Below are positions 1 through 615 of a stretch of 1,761 nt of DNA, piece by piece; position 1 is the stretch's first letter, and every line of letters begins with the position of its first letter. A program made the position numbers and the translations under genes. The notes beneath the pieces are model-generated. The model was not told where the DNA came from. It saw only the letters and a list, made by a program, of their open reading frames with translations, and made no database searches. Source of the stretch: Escherichia coli (GTDB taxonomy: Bacteria > Pseudomonadota > Gammaproteobacteria > Enterobacterales > Enterobacteriaceae); NCBI RefSeq assembly GCF_003334315.1, contig NZ_QOWR01000113.1; one strand, given 5' to 3'.

Positions 1-149
1 GGTTGAGAAGCGGTGTAAGTGAACTGCAGTTGCCATGTTTTACGGCAGTGAGAGCAGAGATAGCGCTGATGTCCGGCGGTGCTTTTGCCGTTACGCACCA
101 CCCCGTCAGTAGCTGAACAGGAGGGACAGCTGATAGAAACAGAAGCCAC
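1..149 (-). CDS. insA: InsA (IS1 transposition repressor / N-terminal part of the InsAB' transposase), first ~49 codons only; 3' part outside the window
   Basis: GTG start on the minus strand at 149-147, then codons reading [48 protein letters not shown], the recalled InsA N-terminus with its Cys-x2-Cys ... Cys-x2-Cys zinc-finger-like motif. Confidence 0.85.
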
Positions 150-181
150 TGGAGCACCTCAAAAACACCATCATACACTAA

Positions 182-204
182 ATCAGTAAGTTGGCAGCAT
201 CACC
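182..204 (-). repeat. IS1 terminal inverted repeat (left end, about 23 bp)
   Basis: Minus-strand sequence ggtgatgctgccaacttactgat is the outermost IS1 sequence; the IS1 match stops at 204. Confidence 0.8.
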
Positions 205-615
205 GATGTTTGGCATGATGATTCATATGGAACATCATCAATTGATATTACTGGCAGTGGAGATCTAATATCATTAGGTGGTCATGCAGGACTTGGCGTT
301 GCGTTTGCTAAAAAGAAAGGTGAAATGTTATCTGATATTTGTATTTATGCTACAGCATGCGGACATGCAGGAATTGGTGGTGGGATAAATGCGGCTATCA
401 CATATTCTGAGACCAAGTCTTTACCTACATCGGGAGTCAGCAATTCAGTAGGTGTAACGGTTGGAGGCGGAGTTGGGGGGCATTTTGCGTATACTTATGT
501 AGTGGATGTTGATAATCCAGAATCATCGACAGAATCTGTTGGTATCGGTGCAGGTGTTGACGCTTCAGTTATGACTCTGGCTTGTAGAACGTGGCAAGAA
601 TGCTGGGTCAATTAA
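205..615 (+). pseudogene. 5'-truncated C-terminal domain of a polymorphic toxin (most likely Rhs-CT), glycine-zipper rich; upstream part replaced by IS1
   Basis: Frame 1 is open from the IS1 junction (205) to TAA at 613-615. The first ATG is at 325 and has only a weak, badly spaced SD, so the frame appears to continue from a larger upstream gene. Translation DVWHDDSYGTSSIDITGSGDLISLGGHAGLGVAFAKKKGEMLSDICIYATACGHAGIGGGINAAITYSETKSLPTSGVSNSVGVTVGGGVGGHFAYTYVVDVDNPESSTESVGIGAGVDASVMTLACRTWQECWVN. A small putative immunity gene follows 11 nt downstream and an H-repeat element lies further on, the classical Rhs arrangement. The Rhs core motif itself is not in the window. Confidence 0.5.

What the first reader, a model, noticed from the sequence alone, without database searches (positions are those of the whole stretch)
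1..213. IS1 insertion boundary lies inside the toxin gene; a 9-bp target duplication is predicted
The IS1 match ends precisely at 204 and the toxin reading frame is open from 205. IS1 normally generates 8-9 bp target-site duplications, so the sequence at 205-213 (gatgtttgg) should recur just beyond the other IS1 end, about 560 bp left of this window, if this is a simple insertion. If it does not, IS1-mediated deletion or rearrangement removed the upstream toxin body. This determines whether the toxin gene is merely interrupted (and recoverable by excision) or permanently truncated.
Basis: partly seen in the sequence, partly recalled or inferred. Interest (0 to 1): 0.4.

Follow-up and report, generated by a model that had tools for sequence, protein, structure and literature searches.

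The report
IS1 end inside an Rhs toxin gene
A common jumping gene (IS1) has cut the toxin tip off an E. coli Rhs toxin gene; this is an ordinary event, and the contig stops inside IS1, so it cannot show whether the rest of the gene survives.

Summary
Window 1-204 is the left end of IS1, 204/204 identical to a full IS1 copy, and it stops exactly at the IS1 terminus. Base 205 is the first base of codon 1267 of a 1402-codon, vgrG-linked rhs gene at the rhsE/ydcD locus (1556/1557 identical to the intact allele in strain CP53). That is 8 codons after the DPLGL motif that marks the start of the toxin tip.

The window is an entire 1761-bp draft contig (GCA_003334315.1, QOWR01000113.1). It is bounded by IS1 on the left and ISEc5 on the right, so the far IS1 end is not on it.

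The same junction occurs in five more E. coli draft assemblies, and every one of those contigs also breaks inside IS1. It is absent from 5,426 complete E. coli genomes and from both large contig collections.

The predicted 9-bp duplication (GATGTTTGG) therefore stays untested. Nineteen exact look-ups and two homology searches for the Rhs-IS1 fusion protein that a simple insertion would make found nothing, which is weak negative evidence.

Five other full IS1 insertions in the fetched loci have 9-bp duplications. A sixth event, 12 bp away, has none and deleted yncG'-vgrG-rhs.

My estimate is about 55% simple insertion and about 40% deletion or rearrangement. The finding is ordinary.

The parts
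1..204 (-). Left-end portion of IS1 (IS1 positions 1-204, read on the minus strand). The insA start is at 149 and runs off the left contig end.
   Evidence: 204/204 identity to the full IS1 in L001. The gene..149 (-) hits PF03811 Zn_ribbon_InsA.
182..204 (-). IS1 left terminal inverted repeat (GGTGATGCTGCCAACTTACTGAT on the minus strand). The element ends at 204.
   Evidence: Read directly from the sequence. The same terminus bounds full IS1 copies in L001, L004, L013, L014 and L015.
205..213 (+). GATGTTTGG: the 9 bases that would be the right-hand copy of the target duplication if this is a simple insertion. Untested.
   Evidence: In the uninterrupted allele this sequence occurs once, at L002 6001-6009. 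The far IS1 flank is not available in any public contig reached.
205..615 (+). Remnant of the Rhs C-terminal toxin tip: codons 1267-1402 plus the stop of a 1402-codon vgrG-linked rhs gene. It has no start codon of its own before 325.
   Evidence: 1556/1557 identity of window 205-1761 to L002 6001-7557; translation; the DPLGL motif lies 8 codons upstream in the intact allele. No Pfam or NCBIfam hit.
627..1021 (+). ydcD / 'RHS element protein dsORF-e4', the presumed immunity gene with a lipoprotein-like signal peptide. Here it is split into 61 + 69 codons by a 7-A run at 793-799 (8 A in intact alleles).
   Evidence: Gene..812 and 812..1021. The intact 131-aa form is annotated in L001. A single-base gap separates the window from L019, L020, L022 and L023.
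1043..1141 (-). Old relic of an IS1-family transposase C-terminus. It is present in all alleles of the locus and is unrelated to the new insertion.
   Evidence: RefSeq pseudogene 'IS1 family transposase, incomplete' at the equivalent place in L001, L002, L013, L014 and L015. Its translation resembles the InsB C-terminus.
1469..1761 (+). Start of the ISEc5 (ISAs1-family, 'H-repeat', ydcC) transposase gene, running off the right contig end.
   Evidence: NCBIfam NF033564 hit, E = 3e-25; RefSeq annotation in L002.

Best explanation
An IS1 element sits between codons 1266 and 1267 of a vgrG-linked rhs gene at the rhsE/ydcD locus, between yncH and pptA. Its left end (IRL) faces the toxin tip.

Shown: the break separates the Rhs delivery shell and its DPLGL boundary motif from 136 of the 144 toxin-tip codons. 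The tip is left without a start codon before position 325. The event is an inherited allele, seen in at least six E. coli draft assemblies.

Inferred, not shown: it arose as a plain IS1 transposition that duplicated GATGTTTGG. If so, the far IS1 end would read ...TTATATGATGTTTGG|GGTAATGACTCC..., and the upstream vgrG and rhs body would still be present. The truncated Rhs would then end in ...YDVW plus a 26-residue read-through into IS1.
For: Exact abutment of the IS1 terminus and rhs codon 1267.

The same junction is present in L019-L023 from five other assemblies.

The intact locus architecture vgrG-rhs-ydcD-ISEc5-pptA is seen in CP53, and 1,255 complete genomes carry the 205-1761 region.

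Local base rate: five of six independent full IS1 events in the fetched loci are simple insertions with 9-bp duplications.

In a published analysis of three long-term-evolution populations, 69 of 83 IS movements made a duplication and 14 were deletion-associated without one (PMC11708052).

An AT-rich run lies just upstream of the site. This fits IS1's known preference for AT-rich targets (my own knowledge).
Against: The far end was never seen.

The fusion protein expected from a simple insertion (Rhs...YDVW + GNDSNLLIVFYVQIMPDDFVMQLHRF) is absent from the cluster representatives found with a 77-aa and a 226-aa chimeric query. It is also absent in 19 exact look-ups using the commonest contig start points. 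Analogous Rhs-IS1 fusions from other insertion sites are on record (P0001-P0008, P0032).

No complete E. coli genome holds the predicted left junction.

A neighbouring IS1 event 12 bp away is a proven deletion.
Confidence: 0.55

Rival explanations
1. IS1-mediated deletion or rearrangement. The IS1 was already resident upstream and its left end attacked the rhs tip (adjacent deletion or inversion). Alternatively, a simple insertion later recombined with another IS1 copy. In either case the far flank is unrelated sequence, there is no GATGTTTGG repeat, and the rhs body (possibly also vgrG) is lost or moved, so the toxin gene is permanently truncated.
For: A proven precedent exists at the same locus. 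In L004, L005, L006 and L011, an IS1 in the opposite orientation joins truncated yncG to rhs at window position 217. It has no duplication and has lost yncG'-yncH-vgrG-rhs.

No left-junction fusion product was found despite six assemblies carrying the right junction.

Deletion-associated IS events without duplications are common: 14 of 83 in PMC11708052.
Against: Simple insertions outnumber such events about 5:1, both locally and in the cited study.

The negative protein searches have low power. The database is clustered at 90% identity, candidates appear limited in length relative to the query, truncated genes may be annotated as pseudogenes, and contigs under 200 nt are often dropped.
Confidence: 0.4
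2. Assembly artefact: the IS1 portion was wrongly joined to the rhs tip by the assembler, and the gene is intact in the real genome.
For: The contig is short and both its ends lie in repeats.
Against: The identical junction was recovered in six separately deposited assemblies. They run different distances into IS1 (8, 75, 119, 144, 204 and 723 bases) and differ in haplotype at position 465 and in the A-run. The join is exactly at the IS1 terminus, as transposition predicts.
Confidence: 0.03

Closest known systems
IS1 (IS1 family) insertions in E. coli chromosomes, with 9-bp target duplications
   Same: The terminal inverted repeat and the first 204 bases are identical to a full IS1. L022 shows 722 contiguous bases 100% identical to that copy. 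The site follows an AT-rich run. Five other IS1 copies in the fetched loci carry 9-bp duplications.
   Different: For this copy, neither the far end nor the duplication could be seen.
IS1-associated deletion allele of the same locus (yncG'|IS1|rhs tip; e.g. CP122655.1 = L005)
   Same: An IS1 abuts the first codons of the same toxin tip, and the downstream ydcD-ISEc5-pptA is retained.
   Different: The junction is at 216/217 rather than 204/205, and IS1 is in the opposite orientation (right end facing the tip). It is therefore an independent event.
Orphan rhs-CT/rhsI modules of Rhs loci (Poole et al. 2011, PMC3150448; Koskiniemi et al. 2014, PMC3967940)
   Same: A toxin tip plus an immunity gene is left without the delivery part of Rhs.
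   Different: As I recall from those papers (not re-read here), classical orphans keep a stretch of core sequence upstream of the DPxGL motif, which allows recombination with the main rhs gene. Here the fragment starts 8 codons after DPLGL, directly at an IS1 end, and keeps no core homology.

Membership tests
IS1 insertion sequence | Terminal inverted repeat of about 23 bp at the element end | tested here: met
   Window 182-204 is the IS1 left inverted repeat. It is identical to the ends of full copies in L001, L004 and others.
IS1 insertion sequence | 768-bp element encoding InsA / InsAB' | tested here: inconclusive
   The window holds only 204 bases, with the insA start at 149. The sister contig L022 shows 723 contiguous IS1 bases and a 223-aa InsAB' fragment. 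The last 45 bases were not seen for this copy.
IS1 insertion sequence | 9-bp (rarely 8-bp) direct duplication of the target flanking the element | not testable with these tools
   The window is the whole contig. No public sequence reached spans the far end.
Rhs (YD-repeat) polymorphic toxin, C-terminal tip | Variable C-terminal region that follows the PxxxxDPxGL motif of a full-length Rhs core protein | tested here: met
   Window 205-615 corresponds to residues 1267-1402 of the 1402-aa Rhs of CP53. NPIIRMDPLGL ends 8 residues upstream. The motif's role as the boundary is taken from PMC3150448.
Rhs (YD-repeat) polymorphic toxin, C-terminal tip | Small cognate immunity gene immediately downstream | tested here: inconclusive
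   ydcD/dsORF-e4 lies 12 bases downstream, but immunity function was not tested. It is frameshifted in the window.
Rhs (YD-repeat) polymorphic toxin, C-terminal tip | Linkage to vgrG / type VI secretion delivery | tested here: inconclusive
   vgrG lies directly upstream of rhs in the intact alleles L001, L002, L013 and L015. Whether vgrG is still present in the source genome is unknown.
Simple (non-deleting) transposition event | The left flank continues the rhs reading frame up to codon 1269 | tested here: inconclusive
   The predicted fusion product was not found, nor the predicted left-junction DNA in complete genomes. The searches have low power.

The most novel reading that the evidence does not exclude
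The first 32 bp of this toxin tip are a recurrent IS1 target. Three independent junctions are seen at 205, 217 and about 236. Together with the slippage-prone A-run in the immunity gene, this could mean that E. coli lineages repeatedly switch off this particular Rhs toxin by selection rather than by chance. The IS1 end might also supply a -35 box (191-196) that keeps the downstream immunity gene expressed after the toxin is lost.
Probability: 0.1. Interest if true: 0.35.

Novelty: already known. Interest (0 to 1): 0.1.

Why it matters
It matters little beyond annotation. The result shows that this strain and its relatives carry a disabled copy of one type VI secretion Rhs toxin. It shows that the 138-aa protein deposited as 'type IV secretion protein Rhs' is a truncated tip given a non-standard ATC start. 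If the rest of the gene is intact, the strain still makes a tip-less Rhs shell; if not, it has lost vgrG-rhs altogether. Either outcome is a routine kind of IS-driven gene decay.

Tried and rejected
1. Looked for the junction in complete genomes with a 111-base query across 204/205. No hit among 5,426 E. coli genomes.

2. Made an exact 34-mer scan of the GTDB representative genomes and of the JGI metagenome contigs. Zero hits in both.

3. Looked for the predicted left junction (rhs...GATGTTTGG + IS1 right end) in complete genomes. Only non-contiguous two-piece matches appeared, such as strains with IS1 in ydcD.

4. Looked up exact proteins to locate the source. The 97-aa partial ydcC product identified the window as QOWR01000113.1. 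The junction-specific 138-aa product found sister contigs, but all stop in IS1.

5. Searched for the chimeric Rhs-IS1 read-through product, as 77-aa and 226-aa queries and as 19 exact guesses. The guesses covered the 9-bp and 8-bp duplication versions, the full-length protein, and the commonest contig start points. All were negative. The homology tool returned only hits between roughly 0.55 and 1.75 times the query length and shows only 90%-cluster representatives, so long chimeras could be hidden.

6. Searched papers for the six WGS accession prefixes. None found.

7. Looked for the third IS1 junction (about 236) in complete genomes. None found.

8. Searched Pfam and NCBIfam with the toxin tip, and NCBIfam with ydcD. 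No hits.

9. Considered deriving the L004-type allele from the window-type allele by inversion or deletion. Rejected, because the junction positions (217 versus 205) and the orientations do not fit a single step.

Full report
**What the window is.** The sequence reads, left to right:
- 204 bases of IS1
- the 3' end of an rhs gene (205-615)
- a small lipoprotein-like gene split in two (627-812 and 812-1021)
- an old IS1-family relic (1043-1141, minus strand)
- the start of an ISAs1-family transposase gene (1469-1761)

An exact-protein look-up with the 97-aa partial transposase product returned a contig of exactly 1761 bp: GCA_003334315.1, QOWR01000113.1. It is byte-identical to the window. So the window is a whole short-read contig that stops in a repeat at each end, IS1 on the left and ISEc5 on the right. 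There is no "sequence 560 bp to the left" on this contig.

**Check of the observation.**
- Window 1-204 is 204/204 identical to the end of a complete 768-bp IS1 in strain 2017.01.04CC. The match stops at the IS1 terminal inverted repeat.
- Window 205-1761 matches the uninterrupted locus of strain CP53 (L002 6001-7557) with a single, synonymous mismatch at 465.
- In CP53 the locus reads vgrG, a 1402-codon rhs, ydcD, the IS1 relic, ISEc5 (ydcC), then pptA.
- L002 6001 is the first base of codon 1267. The motif NPIIRMDPLGL ends 8 codons upstream. This DPxGL motif marks where Rhs proteins diverge into their variable toxin tips (PMC3150448).
- The IS1 therefore separates almost the whole toxin tip (136 of 144 residues) from the delivery part.
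- Frame 1 is open from 190 to the stop at 613-615, and the first standard start codon is at 325.

**Is it real and how common is it?** The same junction (...GGCAGCATCACC|GATGTTTGGCATG...) is present in five further E. coli draft assemblies:

| Locus | Assembly | IS1 bases on the contig |
|---|---|---|
| window (L018) | GCA_003334315.1 | 204 |
| L019 | GCA_025796345.1 | 75 |
| L020 | GCA_031701665.1 | 8 |
| L021 | GCA_017939305.1 | 144 |
| L022 | GCA_004380855.1 | 723 |
| L023 | GCA_003284485.2 | 119 |

The contigs also differ at position 465 and in the A-run of ydcD. This rules out an assembly artefact and shows an inherited allele. NCBI's annotation turned the remnant into a 138-aa protein with an ATC start, named 'type IV secretion protein Rhs' (four accessions).

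The junction is absent from all 5,426 complete E. coli genomes, from the GTDB representative genomes and from the JGI metagenome contigs. The uninterrupted 205-1761 region is common: 1,255 complete genomes carry it.

**The open question: simple insertion or deletion?** Every public contig with the junction ends inside IS1. L022 comes closest, lacking only the last 45 bases and the flank. I therefore tried to find the other junction indirectly.

A simple insertion with a 9-bp duplication would give the DNA ...TTATATGATGTTTGG|GGTAATGACTCC.... It would also give a truncated Rhs ending ...YDVW + GNDSNLLIVFYVQIMPDDFVMQLHRF. An 8-bp duplication would give ...YDVWVMTPTY.
- No complete genome has that DNA.
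- Homology searches with 77-aa and 226-aa chimeric queries found no such protein.
- They did find the same IS1 read-through tail fused to other Rhs tips (P0001-P0008, P0032). So IS1 hits Rhs tips often, and such fusions do get annotated.
- Nineteen exact look-ups were all negative. They used the commonest contig start points seen for this allele, the full-length protein, and both duplication lengths.

This is weak evidence against a simple insertion, for four reasons:
- The database shows only representatives of 90%-identity clusters.
- The hit lists suggest a length window around the query.
- Truncated genes are often annotated as pseudogenes.
- Left-junction contigs could be shorter than deposit thresholds.

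**Base rates.** Among the loci fetched, five independent full IS1 copies have perfect 9-bp duplications: in ISEc5, twice in ydcD, between the IS1 relic and ydcC, and in a prophage. One event has none. In L004, L005, L006 and L011, an IS1 in the opposite orientation joins a truncated yncG to rhs at window position 217, with yncG'-yncH-vgrG-rhs deleted.

In the long-term evolution experiment, 69 of 83 IS movements produced a duplication, and 14 deletion-associated ones did not (PMC11708052).

I start from about 80% for a simple insertion and discount for the negative searches. That gives about 55% simple insertion, about 40% deletion or rearrangement, and about 3% artefact.

**Mechanism.**
- Shown: IS1 transposition, or an IS1-end-mediated event, placed the IS1 left end next to codon 1267. 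This uncoupled the toxin tip from the Rhs shell and from its translation start.
- Inferred: no toxin can be delivered from this gene.
- If the insertion is simple, a tip-less Rhs shell with a 26-residue IS1-encoded tail would still be made, and rare precise excision between the 9-bp repeats could restore the gene.
- If a deletion occurred, the loss is permanent.

**Comparison with known things.** This is a standard IS1 disruption of a polymorphic-toxin gene. It resembles an 'orphan' rhs-CT/immunity module, but it lacks the upstream core homology that lets classical orphans recombine with the main gene (PMC3150448 and PMC3967940; what orphans retain is from my recollection of those papers). It is distinct from the nearby yncG'|IS1|rhs deletion allele, which differs in position and orientation.

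**Verdict.** The biology is ordinary, so interest is low (0.1).

Noticed in passing
window 793-799 (within 627-1021): The presumed immunity gene ydcD/dsORF-e4 is split into 61 + 69 codons by a run of 7 A. Alleles with 8 A encode the intact 131 aa. The split allele also sits next to an intact rhs in CP53. The six junction-bearing contigs show all four combinations of this run with the SNP at 465. That points to recurrent homopolymer slippage or to sequencing error.
   Followed up: partly
window 205-236; L004 9892/9893; protein P0283: Three different IS1 junctions fall within the first 32 bp of this toxin tip: 204/205 (window), 216/217 (the deletion allele in L004-L006 and L011) and about 235/236. 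The third is inferred from the IS1 read-through residues at the N-terminus of P0283. An AT-rich run lies just upstream in the intact gene.
   Followed up: partly
window 1043-1141, minus strand: A diverged relic of an IS1-family InsB C-terminus (…FSRSVELHEKVIG…) lies just downstream of ydcD. It is conserved in all alleles of the locus and RefSeq annotates it as an incomplete IS1-family transposase.
   Followed up: partly
window 191-219, plus strand: A promoter-like site spans the junction. The -35 box TTGGCA lies in the IS1 inverted repeat, followed by a 17-base spacer and a TG-extended -10 box CATGAT in the rhs flank. It points towards the toxin remnant and ydcD. The number of such sites in the window is not above the shuffled controls.
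   Followed up: no
window 199-615: NCBI annotation of the sister contigs calls a 138-aa CDS with an ATC start that begins inside IS1. It is named 'type IV secretion protein Rhs' (MBA4416228.1, MBP4020213.1, RCQ21219.1, TFA77981.1). This is an annotation artefact of the truncated tip.
   Followed up: yes
window 205-615 (full tip: L002 5965-6408): The toxin tip has no Pfam or NCBIfam match. It is rich in glycine runs (GHAGLG, GIGGG, GGGVGG, GIGAG). Its partner ydcD has a lipoprotein-type signal peptide (…LLCGC). Its activity is unknown.
   Followed up: partly
L001 2203-6411 and L013 3203-7411: In some complete genomes that lack this IS1, the same rhs gene is already a pseudogene with an internal stop. 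Others carry IS1 in ydcD (L014, L015) or ISEc1 inside rhs (L014). The locus decays by many routes.
   Followed up: no
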